Shown piece after piece: positions 2,544 to 47,263 of a stretch of 64,000 bases of DNA. The number at the start of each line of letters is the position of its first letter. Position 1 is the stretch's first letter. Under the pieces are notes generated by a model. That model made no database searches, was not told the origin of the DNA, and saw nothing but the letters and a program-made list of their open reading frames with translations. The position numbers and the translations under genes were made by a program. This DNA is from a virus, in the IMG/VR virus record IMGVR_UViG_3300021963_000037, positions 75,481-139,480 of that record; one strand, given 5' to 3'.

Positions 2544-2747
2544 ATGATAGAACAAGAATTTGAAGATTTCGAAAAGGACAGAGAAAACAGCAGCAAAGGA
2601 CTAAAAACCATTGTTGACTTTGGCGTTTCGAAAATTGAATATGATGGTACAACAATTAAAACACAGTTGAAACCTAAGTTCAAAGCAAAGATTAAAAGCA
2701 GTGTTTATATTAAACCTAACTCAGACAGCAAAAACTCGCTGTTTTAA
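2544..2747 (+). CDS. Hypothetical protein ending in KNSLF (clamp-binding-like tail)
   Basis: ORF between primase and UvsY; ATG at 2544 preferred over 2508. Confidence 0.6.
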   Translation: MIEQEFEDFEKDRENSSKGLKTIVDFGVSKIEYDGTTIKTQLKPKFKAKIKSSVYIKPNSDSKNSLF

Positions 2748-2757
2748 AATTAAATAA

Positions 2758-3192
2758 ATGGAAGTTGAAACTAAAGTAAATAAATTGCAGCAGTTAGATG
2801 AGTATCTAGCTACTCAAAGGACTGAATGGACTAGTAAAATTCGAGGTGTTGCAGATGATTTAAAACATGGTAACAATCTCCCAGAAGTCTCATCTTACGC
2901 ATTAAGTTATCGACAAATTTTAGTCGATATGATTGCATCTATTAGTTCTAAAATCAGAACTCAAAAAGCAAAAATAGATCGAGAATATAAATCAGCGTGG
3001 GTAGGATATTATCAATATGATTATAAACTATCTGATGGACAACGCGCTAAATTTATTGAGGCTGACTTGTCAGAAGATTATCAAGTACAACAATTATTAG
3101 AGATGCAAAGAGATTTCTTTAATGGTTCTGTAAAAACTCTTGATAACATTGGATTTGCAATTAAGAATCGAATTGACATGAAACAGTTATAA
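2758..3192 (+). CDS. uvsY: Recombination mediator UvsY-like
   Basis: Helical 144-aa protein with YY..Y, FIEAD and FAIKNRID C-terminus, adjacent to UvsW. Confidence 0.75.
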   Translation: MEVETKVNKLQQLDEYLATQRTEWTSKIRGVADDLKHGNNLPEVSSYALSYRQILVDMIASISSKIRTQKAKIDREYKSAWVGYYQYDYKLSDGQRAKFIEADLSEDYQVQQLLEMQRDFFNGSVKTLDNIGFAIKNRIDMKQL

Positions 3193-3207
3193 AAATATTA
3201 GAATGTT

Positions 3208-4716
3208 TTGGTAATAACATTAACAGACGATAATAGGTTTCTAAGAATCGACGAAGCAAGTGAAATTGAAATTGAACAAATTAATTTAAGTCTCACTAAA
3301 AGAATTGACGGATGGAGATTCAACCCCTTAGTTAAGAGGGGAGTATGGGATGGTTACGTCTCGTATATTAAAGATAACAAATGGATTCCTGTAGGTTTAT
3401 GGAGATATGTCATGGAAACCTGCAAGGAATACAATTTTGATTTAAAACTAAATGGTATTACCAGATTGTTTGATCGAAATATTTCAGCCGAAGGATTTGA
3501 AACTTGGGCAAATGCATTTTTTGATGGCTATCATCTTCAACCGAGAGATTATCAAATTGATGCATCTTATAATATCTTAAAATTTAGAAAGTGTCTTGCT
3601 GAATTGGCAACATCTGCTGGAAAAACGATGATTTCGTTTATGACAGTTGCTTATATGCTAGAGAAACAGAAGGCACAGAAAATCCTTTTTATAGTACCTA
3701 ACGTTTCACTGGTTGTACAAGCTAGCGAAGACTTTGTTGACTATAATTGGAGAAACCAAGTGAAGATACGTATCCAACAAATCTACGCAGGTCAGAAAAT
3801 TAAACCCAATTCAAATGTCGTAATTGGTACATATCAATCCCTAATTAAAAAAGAAAAAGAATATTTTGATGACTTTGATGCTGTTATTGTTGATGAAACA
3901 CATAAAGCAAAATCACAGTCAATTAAAGATATTTTAGCAAAGTGTAGAAATGCACAATATAAATTTGGTTTATCTGGTACAATTCCAAAAGATGGTACAC
4001 TAGATAAACTAACACTAATGTCCCAAACCGGCCCGGTAATTACTGAAGTAAAAGCAGCTTTCTTACAACAAGAAGGGCATATTGCAAAATGCCGAGTTAA
4101 GGTTATTGAAATGGATTACGCTCCCGCTGCAACAAAGCAAGCATTTATGGAGTTAGCACAAAATAGATATGAAAGCAAAGATGTTTTCCAACTCGAACAA
4201 AATTATATCATCAACAACAAAGCACGCCTTGACTTTGTTGTCAACGTTATTTCCAGAATACCAAGGAATTCTCTTGTACTTTTCCACAGAATCGAACATG
4301 GTAAAAAATTATACGATGCTCTTCGCCAAAGAAGCCAAAAGAAGGTTTATTATGTTGACGGAGGGACAGATTCTGATATTCGAGAAGAATACAAAAAGAA
4401 AATGGAAGCTGGTGAAGAGATCGTCATCGTTGCCTCTTATGGCACGTTTTCTACCGGAATCTCAATTAAAAAGATTCATAGCGTATTCTTCACAGAATCA
4501 TTTAAATCAGAAGTCATCATTAGACAATCAATTGGTCGAGGACTTAGACAACATGAGTCCAAAAAAGAGGTAATTATTGTAGATTTCGTTGATAATTTAT
4601 CAACACCTGATTGGGAATGTTACCTATTTAGACATGGTCAAGTTAGACAACAAATCTATAAGCAAGAAAAATTCAATTTCGACATCAAACAGGTCACATT
4701 TGATGGGTCTGAATAA
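3208..4716 (+). CDS. uvsW: SF2 DNA helicase UvsW
   Basis: WDG, RDYQ, ATSAGKT, DETH, GLSGT, QSIGRGLR motifs. Confidence 0.93.
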   Translation: MVITLTDDNRFLRIDEASEIEIEQINLSLTKRIDGWRFNPLVKRGVWDGYVSYIKDNKWIPVGLWRYVMETCKEYNFDLKLNGITRLFDRNISAEGFETWANAFFDGYHLQPRDYQIDASYNILKFRKCLAELATSAGKTMISFMTVAYMLEKQKAQKILFIVPNVSLVVQASEDFVDYNWRNQVKIRIQQIYAGQKIKPNSNVVIGTYQSLIKKEKEYFDDFDAVIVDETHKAKSQSIKDILAKCRNAQYKFGLSGTIPKDGTLDKLTLMSQTGPVITEVKAAFLQQEGHIAKCRVKVIEMDYAPAATKQAFMELAQNRYESKDVFQLEQNYIINNKARLDFVVNVISRIPRNSLVLFHRIEHGKKLYDALRQRSQKKVYYVDGGTDSDIREEYKKKMEAGEEIVIVASYGTFSTGISIKKIHSVFFTESFKSEVIIRQSIGRGLRQHESKKEVIIVDFVDNLSTPDWECYLFRHGQVRQQIYKQEKFNFDIKQVTFDGSE

Positions 4717-14332: not shown

Positions 14333-14626
14333 ATGAGTATTTTAGAAGAAGCAGACAAAATCGTTAATCACAGATCAGAAGAAGCAGATCGTAACTATGG
14401 ACCTTTCTCAGAAGGTATGGATCGTGCAGCAATGATTTTTCAAGGAATGACTGGAATCCCAGTAACTGGAGAACACATGTTTAAAGCACTAGTTGCTTTG
14501 AAATTCTCTAGAGAATCTTATAACCATAAGAAAGACAATTTGCTTGATGCAGTTGCCTATATTCAAGGATTAGAGAATTACCTTAATGAGATTGAAGAAT
14601 CTCGCCCAATCAAATCAAATGACTAG
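14333..14626 (+). CDS. DUF6378-like all-alpha protein (putative nucleotide pyrophosphatase)
   Basis: ILEEA..IV..R...YG...ALKFSRE...KKDNLLDAVAY pattern. Confidence 0.7.
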   Translation: MSILEEADKIVNHRSEEADRNYGPFSEGMDRAAMIFQGMTGIPVTGEHMFKALVALKFSRESYNHKKDNLLDAVAYIQGLENYLNEIEESRPIKSND

Positions 14627-15668
14627 TATCTACGATATTAAAGAAAAGTTAGCTGGTAAAAAGATTGCAATTGATGATGTTGTAACAACTTACAGCTCGA
14701 AAAAAGAATCACATAAATCTGCGTGGGCATATTTACTTATGTCCCAATTAAAAAGTCTAGGATTGGATGTTACTGTTTTAACAAAAGACGGTAACATTCA
14801 TGATTTTGACGTTTGGATGGTAGCCTTACCAATGGAATTCCAAGGTAGTTACAATCTTTTTGGCGGTGCAGGAGATGAACCAGCTGCCAGAATCCAGAGA
14901 TTTATTGATTTTAAAGGAGATGTGTATTGTCTTAATCGAGAAATGCCAGATGTTGGAGCATTTGCTCAATCTCGTATGAATTCTTGTACAGACAATTGGA
15001 AATCATTAGACGTTGCAATCCTGTCATCAAGGTCAAAATCAGTTGAGACAATTGATTTAACCCTTAACTCAGATACCTTTGTACTAGGCGATAGCCATTC
15101 AGTATCTGCTTACGTTCCAGGAGCAAACATTTCCAGAAATGATGGTAAAACATTATTTGGAGTTATTAAAGAAGGAATGCAGAATTATATTCCTGCTGGA
15201 ACAAAACACATAATCACATATTTTGGTAACATTGATGTTAGACACCATTTGTGCCGCCAACCAGATCCAATTGCAGCAACTGAATCTCTAGTTAAAAACT
15301 ATGTTGAACACTTAAAAAGTTTAGGCATGGAAAAGATCAGTGTTATGCAATTACTACCAATCGACCACGAAGAGAGAAGAATTCCAAAGACTGGATTCTA
15401 TAAAGGAACACCTTTTTATGGAAATTTAGAAAAAAGATTGGAAATTTGTCGAATTTTTAACAATAAGCTGAGTATATATCTAAGTGAGGCCGGATACGAA
15501 TTTATCCAATGGCCAAGCGAATGGTACAAGCTAAGCCCAAAAGACTATGCGGACATTTATATGGAGAAACCAGGATCGGTGCACCTTTCACGAAATTATT
15601 ATCAATATGATTTCGAAACTGGCCAAAAGAATCCAGCATTAAAACCAAAAGTCACGAGTTTATTTTGA
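14619..15668 (+). CDS. Chimera of a beta-glucosyltransferase-like N-terminal domain and an SGNH hydrolase/acyltransferase domain
   Basis: N-half KIAI...LGLDVTVL...DFD...NLFGG parallels T4 BGT N-domain; C-half LGDSH, YFGNID, GSVH; ends VTSLF. Confidence 0.6.
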   Translation: MTSIYDIKEKLAGKKIAIDDVVTTYSSKKESHKSAWAYLLMSQLKSLGLDVTVLTKDGNIHDFDVWMVALPMEFQGSYNLFGGAGDEPAARIQRFIDFKGDVYCLNREMPDVGAFAQSRMNSCTDNWKSLDVAILSSRSKSVETIDLTLNSDTFVLGDSHSVSAYVPGANISRNDGKTLFGVIKEGMQNYIPAGTKHIITYFGNIDVRHHLCRQPDPIAATESLVKNYVEHLKSLGMEKISVMQLLPIDHEERRIPKTGFYKGTPFYGNLEKRLEICRIFNNKLSIYLSEAGYEFIQWPSEWYKLSPKDYADIYMEKPGSVHLSRNYYQYDFETGQKNPALKPKVTSLF

Positions 15669-17335: not shown

Positions 17336-18358
17336 ATGAAATTCGGAATATTAAATATCTACATCAATACATCATGTAATACAAATCGAGCAAATGGATT
17401 AGAAATCTATTATCTTCGAAAAGCATTACTCGAGGCAGGACACGAAGTGTCTATTATTGGACATAAAAATTTAAGAAATGCCGACCAAGAATATTATGTA
17501 GATGCAAATGAAGCCGAATGGGAAACTTATGATGGTATATTCATTCAATTAGCAAAAGATAATTTCTTTGGTGGTGGATTAAAACCTCATACAGTTGCAA
17601 TTGTTGAAGGTATTGCAAAAGCAAAGAACAAAATCTACAATCTTGCAACTGATCCAATGTTTCCACCAATTAATCCAGCTAGATCTTTAGCTAGATTTAA
17701 TTTATGTCAAGATTATGTTGATGTATGGGATGACCTAATCGAGGACTCGATTCAAATCTTTCCAGGAAAAGACATTAAGAAATTTAACGGATGGAAGAAG
17801 GGAAATGTAATGAACTTCAACTTATTCGGATATATTTTTAAGAATCTATTTACTGAAAGAGAATTGGCTAATCCAACCTTATTTCAAGGAGAAGATACTA
17901 AAAAATGGGATGTTATCTATTTCGGTAGAAACAGAAAAAGGTATCGTGAAAGCATGCTACAAAAATATATTCCAAAAGATACTAGAAATTTATTAGTTGG
18001 ATATAAAAGTAAAAATGTACCATCAACTCAAATAAATCCAGTTTCACATGACGAGATGATGTATCTTGTTAATCAATCTAAAGTTAGTCTAATTATTGGA
18101 GACGAAGAACATTTAGATAATGTTGTAACATATCGTTTTTATGAAACTTTAGCTTCTAATTCATTAGCAGCAATTCAAATTGAATACGATCCTAACAAAG
18201 AGCTTATTCAAGACCCTGTACTTAGAAAGGTATTATATGTTAAAAATGCCGAAGATGTTAAAGTACTAACTGAATTATATTCAAAGGATTTAATTGATCG
18301 TCAAAAACGAGAATTGGCCAGAATATTTAGTGAAATTAACAAACCTATAGAATTATAA
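17336..18358 (+). CDS. DNA beta-glucosyltransferase homolog (T4 BGT-like, GT-B fold)
   Basis: NFFGG, LATD, DVIYFG.NR..YRE, LIIGD, TYRFYETLAS align with T4 BGT NFFGG, LFTD, DVIYGG.FR..QRE, LIIGD, TLRVWETMAS. Confidence 0.85.
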   Translation: MKFGILNIYINTSCNTNRANGLEIYYLRKALLEAGHEVSIIGHKNLRNADQEYYVDANEAEWETYDGIFIQLAKDNFFGGGLKPHTVAIVEGIAKAKNKIYNLATDPMFPPINPARSLARFNLCQDYVDVWDDLIEDSIQIFPGKDIKKFNGWKKGNVMNFNLFGYIFKNLFTERELANPTLFQGEDTKKWDVIYFGRNRKRYRESMLQKYIPKDTRNLLVGYKSKNVPSTQINPVSHDEMMYLVNQSKVSLIIGDEEHLDNVVTYRFYETLASNSLAAIQIEYDPNKELIQDPVLRKVLYVKNAEDVKVLTELYSKDLIDRQKRELARIFSEINKPIEL

Positions 18359-18359: not shown

Positions 18360-19028
18360 ATGCTTACAAAAAGTCAAAGAGAACTAAGAGCAAACTACAT
18401 AAAGTATCTTAATGCAACCGAAAGGATCGACAAAGATATGATTAAAGATTGCGTTATCCATTACATTAAACCCGAAGTAGATTATACTGATAAAGTATGT
18501 CTTGATTTAGGTGGAAACGTTGGTGGATTTACTAAATTAGCAATCGATCACGGTGCAAAACAAGTTATCACGGTAGAATGTGATGTTCGTAATTACACTA
18601 AACTTTCTGAAAGTTTTGCAGAAGAACCAAAGGCTAAAATTTTACATGCTGCAGTTTCAGGTTCTGACGAAAAAACAATTAAAATCTACAAAGGAACCAG
18701 AGGAGGTTCACATTGTTCTACATCAATCATGAAAAGAAGTACTTTCCATGACTATGATGAGGTACAAAATTTGCATATTCAAGAATTGTTAGATACGTAC
18801 AAACCAGATATTATCAAAATTGATGTAGAAGGTGCAGAGTATCAAATCTTAGAATATATCGAAGCTTACTATCCTGAAGTAATTTTTATTGAATTACACA
18901 TGGGAAAAGTAAAAGAGCATGCCCAACCAGCTATTGAAAGATTAACAAATTTATACCCAATTAATGAGGTTAAAAGTTTTGTTGTCTTTAAAGAAATTGG
19001 TGGTTACGATTGTTGGTTTAAAAAATAA
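18360..19028 (+). CDS. FkbM-family SAM-dependent methyltransferase
   Basis: CLDLGGNVGGF, VE, HAAV, IIKIDVEGAE. Confidence 0.88.
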   Translation: MLTKSQRELRANYIKYLNATERIDKDMIKDCVIHYIKPEVDYTDKVCLDLGGNVGGFTKLAIDHGAKQVITVECDVRNYTKLSESFAEEPKAKILHAAVSGSDEKTIKIYKGTRGGSHCSTSIMKRSTFHDYDEVQNLHIQELLDTYKPDIIKIDVEGAEYQILEYIEAYYPEVIFIELHMGKVKEHAQPAIERLTNLYPINEVKSFVVFKEIGGYDCWFKK

Positions 19029-19037: not shown

Positions 19038-20087
19038 ATGAGTAATATAATTGAAAGCGTAAATATGGATGTCGTAAAAGACATTGGTCGTTTCTTTAAT
19101 AAAGTAAACGAAAGAGCCCTTTATAATATGGGAGTGCTGGATAGTTATGATAGCGATGGAGACGATGCTCTTGGAGAAACTGTAGAGTATTTCCATCCTC
19201 AAATTACTCTAGATGACCGTATGAGATATATTATGGAGAACATTGTATATGCTCCAATCTCAATGGACAATATTATTTGCAATACAATTATTTCTCACTT
19301 TTATGGAGCTCGTGGAATTCACCAAGTTCTAACAAGAGATCCAAATCCAAAAACAGCATTAATTGATTTTGAAAGACTTTTAGTCGATCGAGATTATGAG
19401 AATAAAATTCGTAAGAATTTAGAAGATGCGGTTTCTTTAGGTTTACCAATTTATGGAAGTACGGAATTACGTACAAGTCTTTTTGGAGCAGCCAATAATT
19501 ATGTTGCTCAGTTAAGAAATCAACCAAGAGATGCTCATAAAATTAATATTCTTTTATGGGTAGCTTCTTTTATACCTCGAGGCATCACAGGAAGGATGGC
19601 CCAGGTTAAATCTCTAAACGAGATGTATGATATTATCTCTTCGCTTGAAGGAGTAGGACAGTACTACGGTTACCACTGTTCAACGTCTAACTCGGTAAAT
19701 CCAAGAATTCCAATCAACCATGACGAAAGATTTTGCGTACCAGGTCCTGGAGCAAGATTCACATTAGACCTAATGTTTGGAGAAGGTTGTAATATTCCTT
19801 ATGGTGATAGAGTTATTTGGTTCCGTGAAAATTACAAAGACCTTATTGGAGATATTCCTCTACATGAATCAACACATAATGTTTATGTTGATGGTAAGAA
19901 GATTTTCCAAGAAGAACAAAACGATCTTAAAACTTATGGTTGTGAAGTTGGTCTTTGTCAGTATGGCGTTTATTATCGCTTAAGAAACAATCCACATTTA
20001 ATTAGTCGTCGAAAAGTAGCAAGAACTGATAATTCAGTTATGGAATACTTTTTTAACAATAATTTTGAACAAAACTCGCTTTTCTAA
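19038..20087 (+). CDS. aGPT-Pplase1 / hmU-DNA-kinase-helical-like HhH-fold DNA base-modification protein
   Basis: LEGVGQYYGY (HhH), FCVPGPGARFTL, CEVGLCQYGVY; ends QNSLF. Confidence 0.65.
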   Translation: MSNIIESVNMDVVKDIGRFFNKVNERALYNMGVLDSYDSDGDDALGETVEYFHPQITLDDRMRYIMENIVYAPISMDNIICNTIISHFYGARGIHQVLTRDPNPKTALIDFERLLVDRDYENKIRKNLEDAVSLGLPIYGSTELRTSLFGAANNYVAQLRNQPRDAHKINILLWVASFIPRGITGRMAQVKSLNEMYDIISSLEGVGQYYGYHCSTSNSVNPRIPINHDERFCVPGPGARFTLDLMFGEGCNIPYGDRVIWFRENYKDLIGDIPLHESTHNVYVDGKKIFQEEQNDLKTYGCEVGLCQYGVYYRLRNNPHLISRRKVARTDNSVMEYFFNNNFEQNSLF

Positions 20088-20556: not shown

Positions 20557-21024
20557 ATGGCAAACATTGATAACGAATGTAAAGATTTAGAAGTAAATGA
20601 CTTCTATGATAAATCCACCACACATCTGGCGGATATAATGAATCACCAAAAAGAAATGCAAGAAAAAACTTATGGATTTGATTTTGACAATATGTCAATC
20701 AAAGACATTATGAATTTCTGGCATGTTAATACACACGCAGTAGTTGATGAAATTCATGAAATGACTGATGCTCTTGGTGGTATTAAAGATGGAGATGGTA
20801 ATGCAGTTTGGAAATATTGGAAAACAGCTCATACTAAATATGAGAACATGAAAATTTCCGATCTTTCAGAAAATGATCGTAAAGAACTTTATATGGAATG
20901 GGTAGATATTCTACACTTCTTTATAAATTATGCTGCTTCTATCGGACTAGACGCCAAAACAGCATACAATTACTACTTTGCAAAAGCAGAAGAGAATAAG
21001 CAACGCCAAAAACGAGGATATTAA
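20557..21024 (+). CDS. All-alpha dUTPase/dCTPase (T4 gp56-like)
   Basis: DEIHEM, WKYWK, EWVDILHF, KAEENKQRQKRGY. Confidence 0.85.
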   Translation: MANIDNECKDLEVNDFYDKSTTHLADIMNHQKEMQEKTYGFDFDNMSIKDIMNFWHVNTHAVVDEIHEMTDALGGIKDGDGNAVWKYWKTAHTKYENMKISDLSENDRKELYMEWVDILHFFINYAASIGLDAKTAYNYYFAKAEENKQRQKRGY

Positions 21025-22433
21025 TGTTATTAGACATCGAACAAAGAGACAAAGAGGTTATGGTTTCCTTTTATAATAAAGAAGGAGAAGTAGCTTTTAA
21101 AAGATACCCAATCAATCAATACCAAAACTGGTTTGTTTGTGATGCTAAAGATCGTGAAGCAAGTACTCAATTTAAAAATTGGGATAATCGTCCCGTTAAA
21201 TTAGGTACATCTAGACAATATAATAAGTTTTCATTGGTGTATTTTATGGATAATCTTCCTGCGAAAGACAAAGAAGAGATTTATGCATACAATATGCCAA
21301 AGACTTATTTTGTCGATATTGAGACTGAAATTGTTGATGGTTTCCCTAAAGCAGAAGAAGCTAAATCTAGAATCTTAACTTTCTCAATTATTACTCCAAA
21401 TAAAAAGACAATTGTTCTAGGATTAGAAGACCTTTCACCAGAACAAATCAGTCAAATTGAAAAAGATACTAATGAGTATTTCAAACAATTAGATTCTGAT
21501 TGGACTTTCCAATATATTAAGTTTAAATCTGAGTATGATATGGTTTATACGTTCTTGTATAAATTCATGCCTAAATTCCCAATGATGTCAGGTTGGAACT
21601 TTATCAACTATGACTGGCAATATATTGTTAATCGTTGTAAAAGATTACAAATTGATATTGCAGATTCAGCATTGACTAAAGCAGTAGATTCTACCGATTC
21701 AAGACCACTTCACATGGGTATTCTTGATTACATGCAGTTATATGACAAATATGATAAATCTGTAAAAGTTAAAGAATCAAATGCTCTTGAATATGTTGCA
21801 GGTCAAGTTCTAGGTTTTGGTAAAATTAAATACAATGGTGGTTTACAAGACCTTTATCGTGATGATTTTAAAAAGTATGTTTATTATAACGTAGTCGATA
21901 GTGTGTTAGTATATTACATTGACCAGAAATTAAAATCAATGGATGTACTTCTAACACTTGCAAATATTACACAAATGCCTCTTTATAAAGCAGCTTCTCC
22001 AGTTGCTGTAACTGAAGCATTAATTGCCCGTAAAATGGCAGAGTCTGGTTTTAGAATCGGAACTGAACAAAGATCCGACGGTAAAAAAGATACTCAATAT
22101 GCTGGAGCATTTGTAAAAGAACCTAAAGTTGGTTTCTATCGTGGAGTAAGTGCATTTGACTTTGCATCTCTATATCCTTCGATTATGAGACAATTTAATA
22201 TTTCTCCAGATGCATTCGTTGAAAAAGTTCCAGCTTCTAAAATCGAAGAACGTAGACAAGATAAAAATGTTATTGTTTGCGAAAATGGTGTTGTTTATCG
22301 AAATGAAGATTCGATGTTAAAAATGATTCTTACAGATTTGTATTCAAAAAGAAAGCAGTACAAATCTACTTCGTATGAATATTATACAAAAGCAGAGCAC
22401 TATAAAAAGCTGTTAGAAAAGAAAAAAGATTAA
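21024..22433 (+). CDS. Family B DNA polymerase, N-terminal subunit (gp43A)
   Basis: ExoI DIETE, ExoII GWNFINYD, ExoIII YNVVD, motif A FDFASLYPS; stops within the fingers. Confidence 0.93.
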   Translation: MLLDIEQRDKEVMVSFYNKEGEVAFKRYPINQYQNWFVCDAKDREASTQFKNWDNRPVKLGTSRQYNKFSLVYFMDNLPAKDKEEIYAYNMPKTYFVDIETEIVDGFPKAEEAKSRILTFSIITPNKKTIVLGLEDLSPEQISQIEKDTNEYFKQLDSDWTFQYIKFKSEYDMVYTFLYKFMPKFPMMSGWNFINYDWQYIVNRCKRLQIDIADSALTKAVDSTDSRPLHMGILDYMQLYDKYDKSVKVKESNALEYVAGQVLGFGKIKYNGGLQDLYRDDFKKYVYYNVVDSVLVYYIDQKLKSMDVLLTLANITQMPLYKAASPVAVTEALIARKMAESGFRIGTEQRSDGKKDTQYAGAFVKEPKVGFYRGVSAFDFASLYPSIMRQFNISPDAFVEKVPASKIEERRQDKNVIVCENGVVYRNEDSMLKMILTDLYSKRKQYKSTSYEYYTKAEHYKKLLEKKKD

Positions 22434-22488
22434 CTCCCGGACTATGCCGACAAGGTTATCTTTAATATATAAAGAAACCCCCAGTACT

Positions 22489-22521
22489 TGGCCTAGAACT
22501 TAAAACTCTAGGCCATTCTAG
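22489..22521 (+). promoter_or_regulatory. Hairpin in nrdB leader
   Basis: TGGCCTAGA-ACTTAAAAC-TCTAGGCCA, no T run; AATATATA box at 22464-22471 upstream. Confidence 0.5.
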
Positions 22522-22551
22522 TCTAAATCAAAAGTAAAAAAAATTAAAAAA

Positions 22552-23568: not shown

Positions 23569-23600
23569 GAATAAATAAACAATACAAATTAATATTTTAG

Positions 23601-25515: not shown

Positions 25516-25542
25516 GAAACAAATACTGATTACTCCATATAA
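25516..25542 (+). promoter_or_regulatory. Putative middle promoter GAAAC-N17-TATAA (clamp operon)
   Basis: Exact motif and spacing. Confidence 0.7.
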
Positions 25543-25577
25543 GTATCATATCAAACGTTTCTAAAAAAAGTTTATTC

Positions 25578-26324
25578 ATGAAATTACACATTGACAAAGT
25601 AGACCAAAACAATTTTATTGGTTTCGTAAACAGATTGAAACTTATTGACTCTTTTATCTATTTTAAGATTAAAGGCGATCAAGTAGTTTCTTCAGCTTAC
25701 TTGCCACAGCGAGATGCTGTGAAGCACAACGCTCTTCCACTAGGAGAGATTTTCGTAACATCAGGCGAAACACCTGAAAAAGAATTAAAAGTTGCATTTT
25801 TCGATGCTGCTAAATTAATCGAAGCATTTAAACAATTCGACTACCAAGGTATTCATGGTGAAATCGAATATATTGAAAATGATGAAGATTGCGTAGCAAC
25901 AAGCTTTAAAATCTTTAATGATGATTTAGAAATCACATTATCATGTTCAGAACCTTCTTTAGGTTACAAAGATTTAACAGAATCTCAATTACAAGGTATC
26001 TTCAATACTGAAGGATCTGATTTCGTATTCGAATTAAGTAATGTAGAAGCTGGAAAAATCAAATCTTTATTCAACTTAGATAAAGATGAAACATTTAGTA
26101 TCTCATCTTCTGATGACGGTGTTAAAATCAGCGGTAAATCATACAACAAATTAGTAAGTACTGAATTTGAAGGTGATAAAGCAAGCGTAACAGTTTATAA
26201 AAAGTATTTGAGTTTACTTGACAAAGAGGACTACAAAGCTTATGTATTCGGTAACCGCGTAGTATTACGTTCTACTGAATCTGCAACTTTATTAACTATT
26301 GCAACTTGCCAATCTGCTGATTAA
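25578..26324 (+). CDS. Probable sliding clamp (gp45-like)
   Basis: 248-aa acidic beta/alpha pattern in two halves; position directly before polymerase C-subunit; clamp loaders encoded in window. Confidence 0.6.
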   Translation: MKLHIDKVDQNNFIGFVNRLKLIDSFIYFKIKGDQVVSSAYLPQRDAVKHNALPLGEIFVTSGETPEKELKVAFFDAAKLIEAFKQFDYQGIHGEIEYIENDEDCVATSFKIFNDDLEITLSCSEPSLGYKDLTESQLQGIFNTEGSDFVFELSNVEAGKIKSLFNLDKDETFSISSSDDGVKISGKSYNKLVSTEFEGDKASVTVYKKYLSLLDKEDYKAYVFGNRVVLRSTESATLLTIATCQSAD

Positions 26325-27520
26325 TGACAATCGAAGAACTACTAAATAAACCTGAAGAGCAACTTACCAGAAACGAGCTTGAAATCTTGGCGACTCATTT
26401 TAAGAATGAGTCTGCCAAGTTTACAGCTTATGAACAAGCCGTTAAAGTAACATTAAACTCTATTTATGGAGCCTTTGGGAACCAGTGGTTCCATTTTTTC
26501 AATATCGATATTGCAGAATCTATCACATTACAAGGACAAAATGCAATCTTATATTCTGCTAAAATTCTAAACAAATATTTCCAAGAATTCTTTATTAAAG
26601 ATAAAGATATTCATCAGAAACTAAACATTAGAGTCAAGAATAGTATTCATAAAGAAGCAGTAATTTATATTGATACAGATTCGAACTATGTTCAGTTTGA
26701 AGAAATGTATGAATCTATTGAATGGCTTGGTGAAAAGATGGATATTGCAACTTTTATTCTAGCAATATACAATCTTAGAATTAAAGAATATATTTCAAAA
26801 TCATTAGATAAGTATGCTCAAAGTAGAAACACAGAAAGTTTCTTACAATTTGAACTAGAATCTATTGCTTATGCCGGAATTTGGATGGCTAAAAAGAAAT
26901 ACATTCAAGATATTGCATGGGAAGATAAGTTAAAAGAACATGAAAGATACCCTTCGCTTAAAAAAGTAAAAGTTATCGGATTTGATTCAATTCAATCATC
27001 AACACCAACTTTTGTTCGTAAAAAATTAACTGAGGCAATTCAAATCTTATTTTCTGAAAAACCAAATGCTGAAACTCTTAGTAAGATGGTTACCTTTCTT
27101 AAGAAAACTAAAAAAGAATTTAAGATGGCAAACATTGATGATATTACATTCAATAAGAGAACAAATAATATTGAAAAATATATTGTTGATGACCATATCG
27201 AATTCCAGTATGGTTCTAAGTGTCCACCTAATGTAAAAGCCGCAGGATTCTACAATTATCTATTGAATAACAATCCAAAGTACAAGAATAAGTACAAATT
27301 AATTGGTAATGGTGAAAAGCTAAGATTGTATCATTGTAACCATAAAACTTGCGAAATGTTCGCATATTTTCCTGGTGACCATCCATACGAAATTGCACCA
27401 CCAATTGATTATGAAGTACAATTTGAAAAGAGTATGATTGATCCATTGAATCGTCTTTTAGAATCAATCGGATTACAAACTCTAAACAGAAACTTAATTT
27501 ACTCGACTTCATTATTTTAA
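26324..27520 (+). CDS. Family B DNA polymerase, C-terminal subunit (gp43B)
   Basis: Motif B QAVKVTLNSIYG, ITLQGQ, motif C YIDTDS, KKKY; ends STSLF. Confidence 0.93.
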   Translation: MTIEELLNKPEEQLTRNELEILATHFKNESAKFTAYEQAVKVTLNSIYGAFGNQWFHFFNIDIAESITLQGQNAILYSAKILNKYFQEFFIKDKDIHQKLNIRVKNSIHKEAVIYIDTDSNYVQFEEMYESIEWLGEKMDIATFILAIYNLRIKEYISKSLDKYAQSRNTESFLQFELESIAYAGIWMAKKKYIQDIAWEDKLKEHERYPSLKKVKVIGFDSIQSSTPTFVRKKLTEAIQILFSEKPNAETLSKMVTFLKKTKKEFKMANIDDITFNKRTNNIEKYIVDDHIEFQYGSKCPPNVKAAGFYNYLLNNNPKYKNKYKLIGNGEKLRLYHCNHKTCEMFAYFPGDHPYEIAPPIDYEVQFEKSMIDPLNRLLESIGLQTLNRNLIYSTSLF

Positions 27521-29302: not shown

Positions 29303-30606
29303 ATTTCGGACAAGATTTTGAAAAAATATTCTTTAAGCTAGCGCTATCCAAGCCAAAGTATTTAGAAGCAATTAAAAAAGGATTCTATACTTCGGAAGAT
29401 ATTGACAGCTTACACTATCTTGCCAGCAAATTTTATGACAAATTTCATGAAGCTCCAAGTGCTGAGCAAATGAAATTATTAACTCAGAAGATTACAAAGA
29501 AAATCGATCCAGATATGGTCGATATGATTTATGATTCTGATTTAAAACAATATGACGAAGAATGGTTAACATCTACTGCAGAAGCATGGATTAAATGGAG
29601 AAACTTCGATACAACTTTAGTTGATACAATCGAATACATTAAATCTACCAATGTTACTCCAGAAAATGCAGATCAAATCATTTCTAAAGTTAAAACATTA
29701 ATCAATGATAGAAACTCATTAGTATTTAATTCTGATATTGGATTAGATTTCTTTAATCCAGAGCATCACCAATATAACGAGTCTTCTAAGTTTCCAACAC
29801 CTTATGTTTTCTTAGACCGAATTCTTGGTGGTGGTTATGATAAATCTGGTACTTTAACAGTTTATGTTGGAGAACAAAACATTGGTAAATCTATTTTCTT
29901 AGCAAATGACGCAGCTCACTTTGTTAAAATGGGTACAAATACAGCAGTAATTACTGCAGAGATGGCAGCTTACAAATTCATGCGAAGAATTGGTTCTAAT
30001 TTATTAACAATTCCAATGAATGAATATGATGAAAAAGCAAAAGCAACTGATTATATTCGTAGAAGATTAGAAACTGTAGGAGATGGATTAACTCCTCCTG
30101 GTCAGTTATTTGTAAAGCAATTTCCAACATCTCAAGCAACTGTTCCAGATATCGAAGCTTATTTAAAGCAAATCGAAGAAGAACGTAAAATTAAATTAGG
30201 TGCAGTTGTAATTGACTACATCAACATTTTATCAAACTACAGAAATCCAAACTCTGAAAATACATACTTAAAGATTAAGCAAATTGCTGAAGATTTAAGA
30301 GCAATGGGAGTTAGAAATAATTGGTTAATTGTAACAGCAACTCAGATTACAAGAAGTGGTTATAATTCTACCGACATCGGAATGGGAGATGTATCAGAAT
30401 CTGCTGGTCTTTCTCATACTGCCGATGTTATGTTAGGTATTATTCAAGATGATTTAATGAGAGCAAGTTACGAATACTGGCTTAAAGTATTAAAAATTCG
30501 TGATGGAGAAGGAAAAGGTATGAAATGTAAATTGAATATCAATTATACTTATATGCGTTTAACCGAAACAGATGAAACAACAAACTCAAACATACACTCA
30601 ATATGA
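29299..30606 (+). CDS. Replicative DnaB-like helicase (gp41)
   Basis: GEQNIGKS, TAEM, VIDYINI, IAEDLR, TATQ..R, SESAGL. Confidence 0.93.
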   Translation: MNFGQDFEKIFFKLALSKPKYLEAIKKGFYTSEDIDSLHYLASKFYDKFHEAPSAEQMKLLTQKITKKIDPDMVDMIYDSDLKQYDEEWLTSTAEAWIKWRNFDTTLVDTIEYIKSTNVTPENADQIISKVKTLINDRNSLVFNSDIGLDFFNPEHHQYNESSKFPTPYVFLDRILGGGYDKSGTLTVYVGEQNIGKSIFLANDAAHFVKMGTNTAVITAEMAAYKFMRRIGSNLLTIPMNEYDEKAKATDYIRRRLETVGDGLTPPGQLFVKQFPTSQATVPDIEAYLKQIEEERKIKLGAVVIDYINILSNYRNPNSENTYLKIKQIAEDLRAMGVRNNWLIVTATQITRSGYNSTDIGMGDVSESAGLSHTADVMLGIIQDDLMRASYEYWLKVLKIRDGEGKGMKCKLNINYTYMRLTETDETTNSNIHSI

Positions 30607-31046
30607 TGCAAAAAGTAGATAAAATATTCAATAATACTTTTGAAAGTTCTGAGTTTGAACTTAATGGTTCGATCTCCTTCGAGGTTTCAAAGCAGTATTC
30701 TGATGATAGATCTGAAGATGAGAAAATAGAATTAGAAATGATTCGTAGAGACATTCACTCAGCTATTTTAAATTCAAGATTCAAGCACTTCAACGATTTA
30801 GATGATATGCATGATACTAAAAAATTAAAAAAGATTGACATTAATGAAGTTTACGAATTTATCGTTGGTGAACTAGTTAAAAAATATTCATTGATTGAAT
30901 TATTTAGCGAAACATGCGAATACTTTAATGTCCATCCTACTAAGTTCTATTCATCACTTGGAAATAAATTTAAAGAAGATTTAATCCAAGAACTTGATAT
31001 AAGAACTAATATTTTAAAAAGAAAAAAGATAAACCGTTTGTTCTAA
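30603..31046 (+). CDS. Probable late-transcription coactivator (gp33-like)
   Basis: C-half YSLIE...CEYFNV...LGNKFKEDL..E...NIL resembles gp33 core; ends INRLF. Confidence 0.5.
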   Translation: MMQKVDKIFNNTFESSEFELNGSISFEVSKQYSDDRSEDEKIELEMIRRDIHSAILNSRFKHFNDLDDMHDTKKLKKIDINEVYEFIVGELVKKYSLIELFSETCEYFNVHPTKFYSSLGNKFKEDLIQELDIRTNILKRKKINRLF

Positions 31047-45004: not shown

Positions 45005-45955
45005 ATGGTTCACTCTCTTTTTACAGAAAAATATCGTCCGAAGAATCTATCGGAATTAATCTTACCAGATCGTGTAATGTCCAAATTTGAAAATGGAATT
45101 ACACAGAACATGTTATTAGCTGGAAGTCCAGGAACTGGTAAAACATCAACAGCAAAGGCAATTGTTAATCAATTTGGTTTGCCGTACATTTATATTAATG
45201 CATCAACTGATACTTCAGTAGAAGTTATTCGTACCAGAATTACCGATTTTTGTTCAACTATGTCAATCTTAGATGACCAAGGTAAATTCAAAGTAGTTAT
45301 CTTAGATGAGGTTGATGGAGTATCTGACCAGTTCTTTAAAGCATTACGTGCAACCATGGAACAATTTGCAAGTAACTCTCGTTTTATTGCAACTTGTAAT
45401 TATGTTAATAAAATTCCAGATCCAATTCTTTCTCGTTTTGAAGTTATCAATTTTGACTTTGATAAAGCTGAAGAGACTGAGTTAACTAAGAAATATATTA
45501 AGAGAGTTTACGAAATCTGTGGTAAAGAAGAGATGACCATTGAAAAACCAGCCCTGGTTGAATTTGTTAAACGTAACTTCCCAGATTTAAGAAGCACACT
45601 TAATAAGTTACAAGGTTATAAAACACAAGGAACAGGAAATATCACAATTGATGATGTTAAGAAATTTAACTCAGTTTATAAAGATGCATTTGAATTAATC
45701 TTTAATGAAACTGATCCTGCAAAGAACTATAAGATTTTGGTTAGTGACTATTCAAATAGAGTTGATGATATTCTACAATCTCTAGGAAATGACTTTATTG
45801 AATATGTACAAGCTGAAAAGCCGAATAGTATTAAGCATATTCCTCAAATTGCAATCTGTGTTGCCAAACATCAAGCTCAAAGAGTTAATGTTATCGACCC
45901 AATCATTACAATGTTGAGTTGCTTTTATGAATTACAAACGATTGTAAGATCGTAA
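45005..45955 (+). CDS. Clamp loader large subunit (gp44/RFC-like)
   Basis: EKYRP, GSPGTGKT, INAS, ILDEVD, TCN, SRF, FPDLR. Confidence 0.95.
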   Translation: MVHSLFTEKYRPKNLSELILPDRVMSKFENGITQNMLLAGSPGTGKTSTAKAIVNQFGLPYIYINASTDTSVEVIRTRITDFCSTMSILDDQGKFKVVILDEVDGVSDQFFKALRATMEQFASNSRFIATCNYVNKIPDPILSRFEVINFDFDKAEETELTKKYIKRVYEICGKEEMTIEKPALVEFVKRNFPDLRSTLNKLQGYKTQGTGNITIDDVKKFNSVYKDAFELIFNETDPAKNYKILVSDYSNRVDDILQSLGNDFIEYVQAEKPNSIKHIPQIAICVAKHQAQRVNVIDPIITMLSCFYELQTIVRS

Positions 45956-45971
45956 AATAATTTAAAAATAA

Positions 45972-46018
45972 TTCACTAAACAGTTTTTTATGTCAAGAAA
46001 ATTGTTTATATTTACATA
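45972..46018 (+). promoter_or_regulatory. Putative early (host RNAP) promoter
   Basis: 43/47 identical to 13984-14030. Confidence 0.7.
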
Positions 46019-46042
46019 AGAAACAAATTAAAGATACAATAT

Positions 46043-47263
46043 ATGAAGCTCGGAAATCATACACTACTTATCGATGGTAACTATTTCATCCACAGTAGAT
46101 TGTTCGTTCTACCAAGGCCTAAAAGCGGTGCTCTACTTGGTGATGATGCGAGCAAAGGACAGTTCATTCGAAAACTTGCAATCGACTTTGCATCTGAAGT
46201 TCGAAAAATGACTCCTTTTGTTAATCAAATCGTTTTTGCGGTTGATTCAAAATCTTGGCGTAAGGATCTATTTCCTGAAGCGCAATATAAAGGTACTCGT
46301 ACTCAAGATAGTTCAGTTGATTGGTCAGCTGTCTACGAAGTATATGATGAATTTAAATTAATCCTTGCTAAAAAAGGTGTTATTGTAAATCAAGTTAAAG
46401 GTGCAGAAGCAGATGATATTCTATTTGCATGGTCGACTTATTTAAATACACAAGGTAAGAATTGCATTATTTGGACTGGTGACCGTGATATGATTCAATT
46501 AGTTGATTACTCAAAAGCAACTGATGGTTATTCACTATGGTATTATAACACTAAACGTAAATTAATTGCATTCGAAGGATTCAATGATATTTTTAGTGAT
46601 ACAACTGAATTAGAAATCTCAAATGAAGATTTGTTATTCAATATGGACAGCCCTAGTCATTTAAGTGATCGTATCAAAAATGAAATGGTTGATTGGATGA
46701 AAAAGAATTCAATTGAAGTCGAAGAAATCAACTGTGATCGTTTTGTTTTCCAAAAGATTCTAATGGGTGACAAATCTGATAACATCAAATCTGTTGTTAC
46801 GTACCAAAAACCTATGAAAAATGGTAAAGATCGTACATTCTCAATTACTGACAAACAGGCAGAAGCTATCTTAGAACAATACATTAAAGAAGAAGGCGAA
46901 TTTGTTATTGACCACATGTTTAACAAAACACAAGTTGATAAGATTGTTAACCTGATTTACCGTATTATTGGTCATGACACTCAAGTAAATATCCTTAATA
47001 GATTTAATCAAAATCTTGATTTGATGTTACTTCACTACAATACTATACCAGAACCAATCCAACAAGAAATTACAAAGGTAATTGATCGAGATAAAGAAAC
47101 TGAACCAGCAATTATGGTTCTATCTCAAATGGAAAAGATTCTTGAAGGATCTAGTTGGTTGAAAAAAGCTAATCAAACTCCGGTTGATTTTGATGCATTT
47201 GCTGGCTTAGACGAAAATGAAACAAAAGACAAAGATTCATCTACAACTATTAAATTATTTTAA
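46043..47263 (+). CDS. 5'-3' flap exonuclease (T4 RNase H-like)
   Basis: LIDGN, SWRK..F..YKGTR, EADD, GDRDMIQL, GDKSDNI; ends TIKLF. Confidence 0.92.
   Translation: MKLGNHTLLIDGNYFIHSRLFVLPRPKSGALLGDDASKGQFIRKLAIDFASEVRKMTPFVNQIVFAVDSKSWRKDLFPEAQYKGTRTQDSSVDWSAVYEVYDEFKLILAKKGVIVNQVKGAEADDILFAWSTYLNTQGKNCIIWTGDRDMIQLVDYSKATDGYSLWYYNTKRKLIAFEGFNDIFSDTTELEISNEDLLFNMDSPSHLSDRIKNEMVDWMKKNSIEVEEINCDRFVFQKILMGDKSDNIKSVVTYQKPMKNGKDRTFSITDKQAEAILEQYIKEEGEFVIDHMFNKTQVDKIVNLIYRIIGHDTQVNILNRFNQNLDLMLLHYNTIPEPIQQEITKVIDRDKETEPAIMVLSQMEKILEGSSWLKKANQTPVDFDAFAGLDENETKDKDSSTTIKLF

What the first reader, a model, noticed from the sequence alone, without database searches (positions are those of the whole stretch)
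2544..47263. Shared C-terminal xSLF/xxLF tail links DNA-modification enzymes to the replisome clamp
Seen: six proteins end in a near-identical tail: polymerase C-subunit STSLF (27520), gp33-like INRLF (31046), RNase H TIKLF (47263), small ORF KNSLF (2747), the BGT-N/SGNH chimera VTSLF (15668) and the aGPT-Pplase-like protein QNSLF (20087). The BGT homolog has PTLF in its interdomain linker. Known: T4 gp43, gp33 and gp55 dock on gp45 through hydrophobic C-terminal peptides, and bacterial beta-clamp ligands use QL(S/D)LF. Inference: the modification enzymes ride the sliding clamp and act co-replicationally. This is independent evidence that the inositol locus modifies DNA rather than a cell-surface glycan.
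Basis: partly seen in the sequence, partly recalled or inferred. Interest (0 to 1): 0.8.

Follow-up and report, generated by a model that had tools for sequence, protein, structure and literature searches.

The report
Shared clamp-docking tail on phage enzymes
A T4-like phage puts the same short "...LF" tail on its DNA polymerase, on two primer-removal nucleases and on two enzymes of a DNA-modification gene island, which most likely tethers them all to the phage's sliding clamp so that new DNA is modified at the replication fork.

Summary
All six proteins end in LF at the stated coordinates. A seventh, RNase HII, lies elsewhere in the same 139-kb virus record. That is 7 of 150 ORFs against 0.6 expected (p=3e-6).

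The terminal LF is kept in every homolog of these families found in related viral contigs:
- PolB-C 49/49
- p147 43/43
- PF18723 protein 25/25
- SGNH-fold enzyme 11/11
- RNase HII 80/80
- FEN 13/13
- p79 6/6

It is absent from 49 other gene families. NrdB is the one exception, with an acidic ...DDLF tail.

The 25578-26324 protein has a PCNA fold, and a gp44-like clamp loader lies at 45005-45955. Sister phages carry alpha-glucosyltransferase homologs with the same tail, and T4 alpha-GT is known to bind gp45.

In cultured Aeromonas T4-like phages the homologous modification enzymes carry those phages' own clamp-type tails. One ends ...LFDI like its polymerase; another ends SLDGLFAI, resembling its gp33 tail TLDFLM.

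Clamp docking of the modification enzymes is therefore well supported by inference, but binding itself is not shown. The label "gp33-like" and the internal PTLF claim are not supported. I rate this a new variant of a known principle.

Other first-stage readers of this scan noted the same tail on overlapping windows of this genome.

The parts
25578..26324 (+). Sliding clamp (PCNA fold, 248 aa), the proposed receptor of the LF tails
   Evidence: AF2 model on 12-row alignment A1: pLDDT 76.8, pTM 0.70. The best-ranked Foldseek PDB hits listed are PCNA chains (2ix2_B E 8.9e-11, TM 0.65). There is no sequence-level hit in Pfam, PHROGs, PDB or NCBIfam, nor to T4 gp45. 49 homologs were found in viral contigs and none ends in LF.
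26324..27520 (+). DNA polymerase B, C-terminal subunit, tail ...YSTSLF
   Evidence: PF00136 E 6e-18 and phrog_1918 E 3e-70. 49 of 49 homologs end in LF (48 STSLF, 1 ASALF) at 63-98% identity. The PolB of huge phages LR756500 and LR756504 also ends in SLF.
21024..22433 (+). DNA polymerase B, N-terminal (exonuclease) subunit, no LF tail
   Evidence: PF03104 and PF00136 N-terminal part. 0 of 38 homologs end in LF.
46043..47263 (+). 5'-3' exonuclease / T4 RNase H-type flap nuclease, tail ...TTIKLF
   Evidence: PF02739 E 5e-15 and phrog_107. 13 of 13 homologs end in LF (INNLF, TIKLF, LNNLF, TNTLF) at 55-99% identity.
45005..45955 (+). Clamp loader (gp44-like AAA+), no LF tail
   Evidence: phrog_168 'clamp loader of DNA polymerase' E 1.5e-73, PF00004, Walker A GSPGTGKT. 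0 of 11 homologs end in LF.
19038..20087 (+). PF18723-family protein (5-hmdU DNA kinase helical domain, no Walker A), tail ...EQNSLF
   Evidence: PF18723 E 3.6e-12, 46.7 bits against cut-off 25. 25 of 25 homologs in related loci end in LF, including 12 that are only 27-28% identical (SSCLF). 67 of the 120 best database homologs end in LF. In Aeromonas phage 31 it is fused to the SGNH enzyme and ends SLDGLFAI.
14586..15668 (+). Two-domain enzyme with a C-terminal SGNH/GDSL-hydrolase fold (phrog_13881), tail ...KVTSLF; the true start is probably 14619
   Evidence: phrog_13881 E 1e-57. AF2 pLDDT 90.4, with the last 9 residues at low confidence. Foldseek hits to SGNH esterases and acyltransferases at probability 1.0. 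GDSH is invariant. 11 of 11 homologs in related loci and 87 of the 120 best database homologs end in LF. The Aeromonas phage 25 homolog ends ...LFDI, like its polymerase.
30603..31046 (+). 147-aa protein of unknown family, basic tail ...KRKKINRLF, between the gp41 helicase and gp47
   Evidence: 43 of 43 homologs end in LF. The homolog in LR756500 (42% identical) ends KKIKKLF. No family match and no similarity to T4 gp55 or gp33.
2508..2747 (+). 79-aa protein of unknown family, tail ...SKNSLF, directly after the primase gene
   Evidence: 6 of 6 homologs end in LF. Three positional 71-aa equivalents in more distant loci end GKLF. No family match and no similarity to T4 gp33.
17336..18358 (+). 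T4 beta-glucosyltransferase-like protein WITHOUT the tail (internal control)
   Evidence: PF09198 E 3.6e-7. It ends ...KPIEL, and 0 of 3 homologs end in LF. T4 beta-GT does not pull down gp45 (PMC13216743, passages).

Best explanation
The extreme C-terminal ...x-[S/x]-L-F-COOH is this phage lineage's docking peptide for its own PCNA-fold sliding clamp (25578-26324). A gp44-like loader (45005-45955) loads that clamp.

The peptide sits at the end of a variable, probably disordered linker. It is carried by:
- the polymerase catalytic C-subunit;
- the flap nuclease and RNase HII;
- two small proteins of unknown family (p79, p147);
- two enzymes of the DNA-modification island, a PF18723 (5-hmdU-DNA-kinase-family) protein and an SGNH-fold enzyme.

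Docking concentrates the modification enzymes on freshly replicated DNA, so hypermodification is coupled to the replisome.

Shown here: the tails, their enrichment, their strict conservation, the fold of the clamp, and the switch of tail type between phage lineages. Inferred: that the tail binds the clamp, and that this makes modification co-replicational.
For: (1) Enrichment. 7 of 150 ORFs end in LF against 0.60 expected, p=3e-6.

(2) Family-specific invariance. PolB-C 49/49, p147 43/43, PF18723 protein 25/25, SGNH enzyme 11/11; RNase HII 80/80, FEN 13/13, p79 6/6. In contrast, 18 other families with at least 5 homologs and 31 further families have 0. In alignment A2, L348 and F349 are invariant across sequences only 28% identical, while the preceding ~15 residues vary.

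(3) The carriers are classical clamp clients. The PolB C-terminus is where T4 gp43 carries its clamp-binding epitope; the C-terminal motifs of gp43, gp33 and gp55 are interchangeable (PMC2988020, passages). Solved PCNA complexes with the FEN-1 C-terminus, RNase HII and PolB appear among the fold hits (1rxm, 3p83, 3a2f).

(4) A receptor and its loader exist: a PCNA fold and phrog_168.

(5) Sister phages carry AGT homologs with TNSLF or TTSLF tails in the island. Two of the 10 such ORFs were tested and both match PF11440. T4 alpha-GT co-purifies with gp45 and beta-GT does not (PMC13216743, passages). Here the BGT-like protein lacks the tail.

(6) Co-variation. In Aeromonas phage 25 the SGNH homolog ends ...LELFDI and gp43B ends ...LFDMFDI. 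Of 4 places in 161 kb that encode F-D-I-stop, only these two lie at annotated CDS ends. In Aeromonas phage 31 the SGNH+PF18723 fusion ends SLDGLFAI, while its gp33 ends TLDFLM and T4 gp43, gp55 and gp33 carry SLDFLF, SLDFLY and TLDFLL.

(7) The tail of the SGNH enzyme model has low pLDDT, as expected of a flexible linear motif.
Against: p79 and p147 have no recognisable family, so two of the seven carriers add nothing to the 'clamp client' argument.

In 22 of 36 related loci NrdB ends in an acidic ...EDDLF. A terminal LF can therefore serve another partner. By recall this is the R1-binding tail of R2 subunits.

The motif is neither the T4 consensus nor a canonical PIP box. Its last three residues resemble the bacterial beta-clamp motif, so the receptor could be a different clamp.

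The record is only about 50% complete by CheckV, so a second clamp or other carriers may be unseen.

33 of 120 SGNH-family and 53 of 120 PF18723-family database homologs do not end in LF. Many of these do carry other short hydrophobic tails.

In T4 the alpha-GT/gp45 contact was reported not to be the main determinant of the modification level (PMC13216743), so docking need not mean obligatory co-replicational action.
Confidence: 0.7

Rival explanations
1. The LF tail is a docking peptide, but for a different hub than the phage PCNA-like clamp. The candidates are the host beta clamp (DnaN), whose ligands use a QL[S/D]LF-type pentapeptide, or another replisome protein such as the ssDNA-binding protein or the clamp loader.
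For: The tail is unlike the T4 SLDFLF motif. No binding partner was demonstrated.
Against: The phage encodes its own clamp and loader next to the polymerase halves. The tail sits exactly where gp43-family polymerases carry their own-clamp epitope. Only 1 of 7 tails has the Q and none has L at position -4. In Aeromonas phages the homologous enzymes carry T4-type tails that match gp33 and gp43, which are known ligands of gp45 (PMC2988020).
Confidence: 0.15
2. The tail is a turnover or localisation signal, for example a C-terminal degron read by the phage's own Clp-type protease, shared by early and replication proteins so that they are cleared late in infection.
For: An earlier first-reader note (e1-6155822, unchecked) reports ClpC/ClpP genes in the same record. 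C-terminal hydrophobic dipeptides are used as degrons in bacteria (recalled). All carriers are non-virion proteins.
Against: Other replication proteins (gp41, UvsX, gp32, primase, clamp, loader, PolB-N, gp46/47) lack it in all homologs. The co-variation with gp33- and gp43-type clamp motifs in Aeromonas phages is not expected of a degron. The Clp genes were not examined here.
Confidence: 0.05
3. The shared tail is coincidence, or a by-product of AT-rich codon usage before stop codons, with no common function.
For: Unchosen ORFs end in LF at 1.3% (9 of 700), above the 0.4% dipeptide expectation.
Against: 7 of 150 remains well above either background. Five different Leu codons are used. Conservation is 100% in seven families over 227 homologs, against 0 in 49 other families.
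Confidence: 0.01

Closest known systems
T4 gp43 / gp33 / gp55 C-terminal sliding-clamp-binding epitopes (ligands of gp45)
   Same: A short hydrophobic peptide at the extreme C-terminus behind a variable linker, shared by the polymerase and by non-polymerase clamp clients of one phage. It is interchangeable in T4 (PMC2988020, passages). Tails read from the T4 record: gp43 ...SLDFLFG, gp55 ...SLDFLYEAND, gp33 ...TLDFLL.
   Different: The motif here is x-S/x-L-F-COOH with no acidic residue, and it always ends the chain. The clamp shows no sequence similarity to gp45 and is PCNA-sized at 248 aa. The carriers include RNase HII, a PF18723 protein and an SGNH-fold enzyme, which have no T4 counterparts.
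T4 alpha-glucosyltransferase binding to gp45 (Sommer et al. 2004, seen only as reference 20 of PMC13216743; confirmed by pull-down in PMC13216743, passages read)
   Same: A DNA-base-modifying enzyme is tethered to the phage sliding clamp, while the beta-GT is not. Here AGT homologs of sister phages carry the tail and the BGT-like protein does not.
   Different: T4 alpha-GT ends ...QFDIITK without the gp43-type motif, and its contact site is not defined in what I read. Here the modification enzymes carry the very same terminal peptide as the polymerase, and the enzymes belong to other families.
PCNA-interacting peptides of archaeal and eukaryotic FEN1, RNase HII and PolB (PIP box, Qxx[LIM]xx[FY][FY]; consensus recalled)
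   Same: The same set of clients (PolB, flap nuclease, RNase HII) on a PCNA-fold ring through C-terminal peptides. Solved examples are among the fold hits (1rxm, 3p83, 3a2f).
   Different: No canonical PIP spacing. There is a single aromatic residue, and it is the last residue of the chain.
Bacterial beta-clamp-binding motif QL[S/D]LF
   Same: It ends in S-L-F. One tail reads QNSLF.
   Different: The resident clamp has a two-domain PCNA-type fold, not DnaN. L at position -4 is absent in 7 of 7 tails and Q at -5 is present in 1 of 7.

Membership tests
Phage sliding-clamp docking peptide (T4 gp43/gp33/gp55 type) | Short hydrophobic peptide at the extreme C-terminus, behind a variable or flexible linker | tested here: met
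   L and F are invariant while the preceding ~15 residues vary in A2, A3 and A4. The last residues of the SGNH enzyme model have pLDDT below 62.
Phage sliding-clamp docking peptide (T4 gp43/gp33/gp55 type) | The same peptide on the replicative polymerase and on other clients in one genome | tested here: met
   PolB-C plus six other proteins in the record.
Phage sliding-clamp docking peptide (T4 gp43/gp33/gp55 type) | T4 consensus [S/T]LDFL[F/Y] | tested here: not met
   Tails here are STSLF, QNSLF, VTSLF, KNSLF, TESLF, INRLF and TIKLF, against the T4 tails. This is a variant motif. Cyanophage S-SRM01 PolB (...SLDSFFI) is intermediate.
Phage sliding-clamp docking peptide (T4 gp43/gp33/gp55 type) | Physical binding of the peptide to the clamp | not testable with these tools
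   Needs peptide pull-down, ITC or a co-structure with the 25578-26324 protein.
Phage sliding-clamp docking peptide (T4 gp43/gp33/gp55 type) | Tail type tracks the resident clamp system across lineages | tested here: met
   Aeromonas phage 25: SGNH homolog ...LFDI and gp43B ...MFDI are the only two annotated CDS ending F-D-I. Aeromonas phage 31: the fusion ends SLDGLFAI and gp33 ends TLDFLM. Only two cultured phages were examined.
PCNA/gp45-type sliding clamp (for 25578-26324) | Two topologically repeated beta-alpha-beta domains in about 230-260 residues | tested here: met
   AF2 model. The best-ranked Foldseek PDB hits listed are PCNA, with E down to 8.9e-11 and TM 0.6-0.69.
PCNA/gp45-type sliding clamp (for 25578-26324) | Sequence membership in Pfam gp45 or PCNA families | tested here: not met
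   No hit for PF02916 or PF09116 in the record. No Pfam hit for the protein. hhalign against T4 gp45 gives probability 0.1.
PCNA/gp45-type sliding clamp (for 25578-26324) | Cognate AAA+ clamp loader and polymerase in the same genome | tested here: met
   phrog_168 clamp loader at 45005-45955. The gene abuts PolB-C.
PCNA/gp45-type sliding clamp (for 25578-26324) | Closed trimeric ring | not tested
   No oligomer model was made.
[quoted passage not shown] | Match to the family's helical domain PF18723 above the gathering score | tested here: met
   46.7 bits against 25, residues 59-316. All but one of the 120 listed homologs carry PF18723 as a precomputed domain.
[quoted passage not shown] | Nucleotide-binding (Walker A) kinase module | tested here: not met
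   No [AG]xxxxGK[ST] in the protein, whereas the clamp loader control has one. I therefore file it as a PF18723-family protein, not as a proven kinase.
SGNH/GDSL hydrolase (for 14586-15668, C-terminal half) | SGNH fold with a GDS(x) block | tested here: met
   Foldseek probability 1.0 to 7bxc, 5tic, 7tog, 2hsj and others. G157-D158-S159-H160 are invariant in 33 sequences. The Pfam GDSL hit is only E 0.12.
T4 gp33 / gp55 (for 30603-31046 and 2508-2747) | Detectable homology to gp33 or gp55 / sigma region 2 | tested here: not met
   hhalign probability 0.2 or less. PF04542 is absent from the record. No PDB profile hit.

The most novel reading that the evidence does not exclude
Clamp-docking tails may be a general feature of phage DNA-hypermodification enzymes that co-evolves with each lineage. 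The enzymes concerned are PF18723 proteins, the phrog_13881 SGNH enzymes and alpha-glucosyltransferases. On this reading hypermodification is physically built into the replisome. A polymerase-matched C-terminal peptide could then be used as a genome-mining marker for new DNA-modifying enzymes and other clamp clients, such as p79, p147 and the 364-aa phrog_14998 protein that ends QSALF or QNALF in sister phages.
Probability: 0.45. Interest if true: 0.75.

Novelty: new variant of a known kind. Interest (0 to 1): 0.62.

Why it matters
Thymidine and cytosine hypermodification is described as post-replicative. How the enzymes find nascent DNA before host nucleases do is largely open. The two key thymidine-hypermodification papers I searched do not mention a clamp at all (0 occurrences of 'clamp' in PMC5889632 and PMC8989533). 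No paper in the library holds both '5-hmdU DNA kinase' and 'sliding clamp'.

A polymerase-type docking peptide on two unrelated modification enzymes extends the single T4 alpha-GT/gp45 case to a principle. The peptide is conserved, it is swapped for the local motif in other phage lineages, and it is present on AGT homologs in sister phages.

This gives:
- a cheap sequence marker for finding DNA-acting enzymes in phage 'dark matter';
- a testable system in cultured Aeromonas phages 25, 31 and 44RR;
- supporting evidence that the inositol-synthase island acts on DNA.

It also defines a new SLF-COOH ligand motif for a divergent PCNA-like phage clamp that is shared with very large uncultured phages.

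Tried and rejected
Complex prediction. I sent the clamp (A1) with residues 310-349 of the PF18723 protein (A2), collected. The tool's verdict was 'no answer': score 0.28 against the mark of 0.32, and the controls were not run. This is neither support nor evidence against.

Sequence-level identification of the clamp failed everywhere: Pfam, PHROGs, NCBIfam, a PDB profile search, PF02916/PF09116 against the record, and hhalign against T4 gp45. Only the fold search identified it.

The identity of p147 and p79 stays unknown. Pfam, PHROGs, NCBIfam, PDB profile searches, the ESM Atlas (p147 only), tblastn against phages, and hhalign against T4 gp55 and gp33 gave nothing usable. I rejected the labels gp33 and gp55 for lack of evidence. 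A functional analogy remains possible.

An SGNH-family profile search against PDB by sequence gave nothing. The N-terminal domain of that enzyme ('BGT-N') was not tested.

Co-variation in the '...LF[LF]D[VI]T...' clade of SGNH homologs could not be tested. The two long records reached (L160, L162) hold no PolB-C match. A 280-aa neighbour there ends ...LFLA...LFLS or ...LFLT, which I left unexplained.

I considered the NrdB ...DDLF tails of relatives as members of the set and rejected them. Their context is acidic, and this phage's own NrdB ends ...DDMFS.

Supplementary files of papers were not opened. They may hold the T4 alpha-GT/gp45 gels.

Full report
WHAT THE WINDOW IS

The window is the second half of a 139,480-bp linear virus record that CheckV puts at about 50% complete. 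Almost all genes lie on the + strand and G+C is about 33%. It is a T4-like replication and morphogenesis region.

Replication and recombination genes:
- gp32-type SSB, 535-1461
- primase, 1445-2524
- UvsW-like helicase, 3208-4716
- split family-B polymerase: N-half 21024-22433, C-half 26324-27520
- nrdB, nrdA and a 248-aa gene lying between the two polymerase halves
- UvsX, gp41 helicase, gp47 and gp46
- gp44-like clamp loader, 45005-45955 (phrog_168, E 1.5e-73)
- T4 RNase H-type 5'-3' exonuclease, 46043-47263

Virion and packaging genes: portal, prohead protease, major head protein, large terminase, tail sheath, gp15-like protein and a DNA end protector.

Upstream of the polymerase lies a modification island:
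- a phrog_13881 protein, 14586-15668
- myo-inositol-1-phosphate synthase, 15717-16895
- a T4 beta-glucosyltransferase-like protein, 17336-18358
- an FkbM methyltransferase, 18360-19028
- a PF18723 (5-hmdU DNA kinase helical domain) protein, 19038-20087
- an NTP pyrophosphohydrolase, 20557-21024

THE OBSERVATION

In the whole record 7 of 150 non-overlapping ORFs of at least 40 aa end in LF, against 0.60 expected from the proteome's LF dipeptide frequency (p=3e-6). Five end in SLF against 0.067 expected (p=1e-8). The next most common terminal dipeptides reach 4 of 150 at most.

As a control for AT-rich DNA, 9 of 700 unchosen ORFs end in LF (1.3%). The seven tails use five different leucine codons.

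The seventh carrier lies outside the window at G000:C1:29117-29746. It is an RNase HII (PF01351, E 7e-34). None of the seven virion or packaging proteins identified ends in LF.

CONSERVATION

I fetched four sets of related viral contigs: 49 around the 248-aa gene, 13 around the exonuclease, 10 around the primase and 80 around RNase HII. I called ORFs on them and matched these to the record's proteins by BLASTP.

Every homolog of the seven families ends in LF:
- PolB-C: 49 of 49 at 63-98% identity (48 STSLF, 1 ASALF)
- p147: 43 of 43
- PF18723 protein: 25 of 25, including 12 that are only 27-28% identical and end SSCLF
- phrog_13881 enzyme: 11 of 11
- RNase HII: 80 of 80, with six or more different residues before the LF
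- exonuclease: 13 of 13
- p79: 6 of 6

Three positional 71-aa equivalents of p79 in more distant loci end GKLF.

By contrast, 18 other families with at least 5 homologs in the first set and 31 further families in the other sets have no homolog ending in LF. The one exception is NrdB. It ends in an acidic ...EDDLF in 22 of 36 relatives, but ...DDMFS here. I treat that as a different tail; by recall it is the R1-binding peptide of R2 subunits. It is a caution that a terminal LF alone is not diagnostic.

In alignment A2 the last two residues are invariant while about 15 residues before them vary freely. In the large protein database, 87 of the best 120 phrog_13881-family hits (599 in all) and 67 of the best 120 PF18723-family hits (452 in all) end in LF. 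Thirteen of the former carry ...LF[LF]D[VI]T... a few residues from the end, and many of the latter carry other short hydrophobic tails such as ...MFDIIDELI...LFDLI or ...LLEF.

The PolB of two very large uncultured phages ends ...SSSLF and ...TLSLF, and a p147 homolog in one of them ends ...KKLF. A cyanophage PolB ends ...SLDSFFI.

THE RECEPTOR

The 25578-26324 protein has no sequence-level match anywhere. An AlphaFold2 model on 12 homologs gave pLDDT 76.8 and pTM 0.70. The best-ranked Foldseek matches listed from the PDB are PCNA chains (E down to 8.9e-11, TM 0.6-0.69).

Together with the gp44-like loader and its position between the polymerase halves, this makes it the phage's sliding clamp.

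WHY THE TAIL IS MOST LIKELY A CLAMP-DOCKING PEPTIDE

1. It sits at the C-terminus of the polymerase's catalytic fragment. T4 gp43 carries its gp45-binding epitope at that position. In T4 the C-terminal motifs of gp43, gp33 and gp55 are 'highly similar' and interchangeable, and the RB69 clamp was crystallised with the polymerase's last 11 residues (PMC2988020, passages read). The T4 record shows ...SLDFLFG...SLDFLYEAND and ...TLDFLL.

2. Three of the seven carriers (PolB, flap nuclease, RNase HII) are the classical PCNA clients. Solved complexes of exactly these with PCNA are among the fold hits (3a2f, 1rxm, 3p83).

3. In sister phages the island holds other genes with the same tail. Ten 380-408-aa ORFs end TNSLF or TTSLF; the two I tested match the DNA alpha-glucosyltransferase family (PF11440, phrog_2888). 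Four 364-aa ORFs end QSALF or QNALF; the one I tested matches phrog_14998, of unknown function. T4 alpha-GT co-purifies with gp45 whereas beta-GT does not (PMC13216743, passages; it cites Sommer et al. 2004, which I did not see). Here, too, the BGT-like protein has no tail.

4. The tail type follows the lineage.
- Cultured T4-like Aeromonas phages encode homologs of both island enzymes, fused in phages 31 and avDM9-HANS (795 and 805 aa).
- The fusion ends ...SLDGLFAI. The same phage's gp33 ends ...TLDFLM, its gp55 ends ...NLDNFYEDEPET and its gp43B ends ...NLFDMFDI.
- In Aeromonas phage 25 the stand-alone SGNH homolog ends ...TLELFDI and gp43B ends ...NLFDMFDI.
- A scan of that 161-kb genome for F-D-I-stop finds 4 places. 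Only two lie at annotated CDS ends: the polymerase and this enzyme. By my own rough estimate from typical residue frequencies, not from a call, about 0.04 such coincidences are expected.

WHAT THE TWO ISLAND ENZYMES ARE

The 19038-20087 protein matches PF18723 above threshold but has no Walker A motif. I file it as a PF18723-family DNA-hypermodification protein, not as a proven kinase. Members of the 5-HMUDK family act on 5-hmdU already in DNA (PMC5889632, passages).

The 14586-15668 protein probably starts at 14619, because its homologs are 349 aa. It folds with high confidence (pLDDT 90.4) into an N-terminal alpha/beta domain and a C-terminal SGNH/GDSL-hydrolase domain with an invariant GDSH. 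Its last residues are modelled with low confidence.

Three observations tie this enzyme to pyrimidine hypermodification:
- its fusion to the PF18723 protein in Aeromonas phages;
- a thymidylate-synthase-family gene directly downstream of it in another clade;
- its constant position next to the inositol-phosphate synthase.

WHAT REMAINS OPEN

- Binding was not shown.
- p79 and p147 are conserved, tail-bearing proteins of unknown family. They could be functional analogues of gp33 and gp55, but no test supports homology.
- The receptor could in principle be another hub, such as the host DnaN.
- Docking need not make modification strictly co-replicational. In T4 the alpha-GT/gp45 contact was found not to be the main determinant of modification levels (PMC13216743).
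- The record is half a genome.

COMPARISON AND NOVELTY

The principle is known: C-terminal clamp-binding peptides, and one modification enzyme (T4 alpha-GT) that binds the clamp. Four things are new here:
- a distinct SLF-COOH motif for a highly divergent PCNA-like phage clamp;
- its presence on RNase HII and on two further families of modification enzymes;
- the same polymerase-type peptide on AGT homologs;
- cross-lineage switching of the enzymes' tails to the local clamp motif.

In the library searched, no paper combines '5-hmdU DNA kinase' with 'sliding clamp'. The two main thymidine-hypermodification papers contain no 'clamp'. A search for hypermodification + sliding clamp + phage + C-terminal returned only the T4 GT work and unrelated papers. 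Papers outside the library could still describe it.

Other first readers of this scan noted the same tail on overlapping windows (e1-6155848). That is repetition, not independent evidence.

VERDICT

I rate it a new variant of a known kind, interest 0.62.

Noticed in passing
window 21024-27520: The family-B polymerase is split into two genes about 3.9 kb apart. nrdB, nrdA and the clamp gene lie between the halves. This differs from the adjacent 43A/43B split of Aeromonas phages 25 and 31.
   Followed up: partly
window 22552-23568 and homologs in L001-L049: NrdB ends in an acidic ...EDDLF in 22 of 36 related loci...DDLFS or ...DDMFS in 13, and ...DDIF in 1. This is a second, unrelated kind of terminal LF.
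   Followed up: partly
L039:3813-5033, L011:5625-6851, L013:809-1903 (sister phages): The modification island is modular. Some relatives carry an alpha-glucosyltransferase homolog, others a 364-aa phrog_14998 protein. Each has the same LF tail, in the place where this phage has other genes.
   Followed up: partly
L170:1684-4071 (Aeromonas phage 31 ORF233c) and L171:1831-4248 (avDM9-HANS): Cultured T4-like Aeromonas phages encode a fusion of the SGNH-fold enzyme and the PF18723 protein, annotated as hypothetical. This suggests these well-known phages carry an uncharacterised DNA modification.
   Followed up: partly
G000:C1:5121-6017 (outside the window); L160:11083-11943, L162:11098-11946, L163:907-1752: A thymidylate-synthase-family gene (PF00303, E 7e-20) lies in the record. 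Its 45-47% identical homolog sits directly downstream of the SGNH enzyme in another phage clade.
   Followed up: no
L159:3644-4486, L160:3636-4478, L161:211-1032, L162:3548-4402: In the clade whose SGNH enzymes end ...LF[LF]D[VI]T..., a 273-284-aa protein of unknown function ends ...LFLA...LFLS or ...LFLT. This may be that clade's version of the tail.
   Followed up: no
window 8335-10188 and 15717-16895: A 617-aa protein with a C-terminal cytidylyltransferase domain (phrog_3041/395) lies 5.5 kb upstream of the inositol-1-phosphate synthase. Together they could make a CDP-activated inositol donor. Neither carries the tail.
   Followed up: no
P0176, P0179, P0184, P0186, P0191-P0193, P0200, P0226, P0227, P0235: PF18723 homologs of 519-567 aa carry an extra C-terminal domain (ending around ...GRKY...) and have no LF tail.
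   Followed up: no
window 14586 versus 14619: The longest ORF of the SGNH enzyme starts 11 codons upstream of where nearly all homologs (349 aa) start. It overlaps the preceding 97-aa gene, so 14619 is the likelier start.
   Followed up: partly
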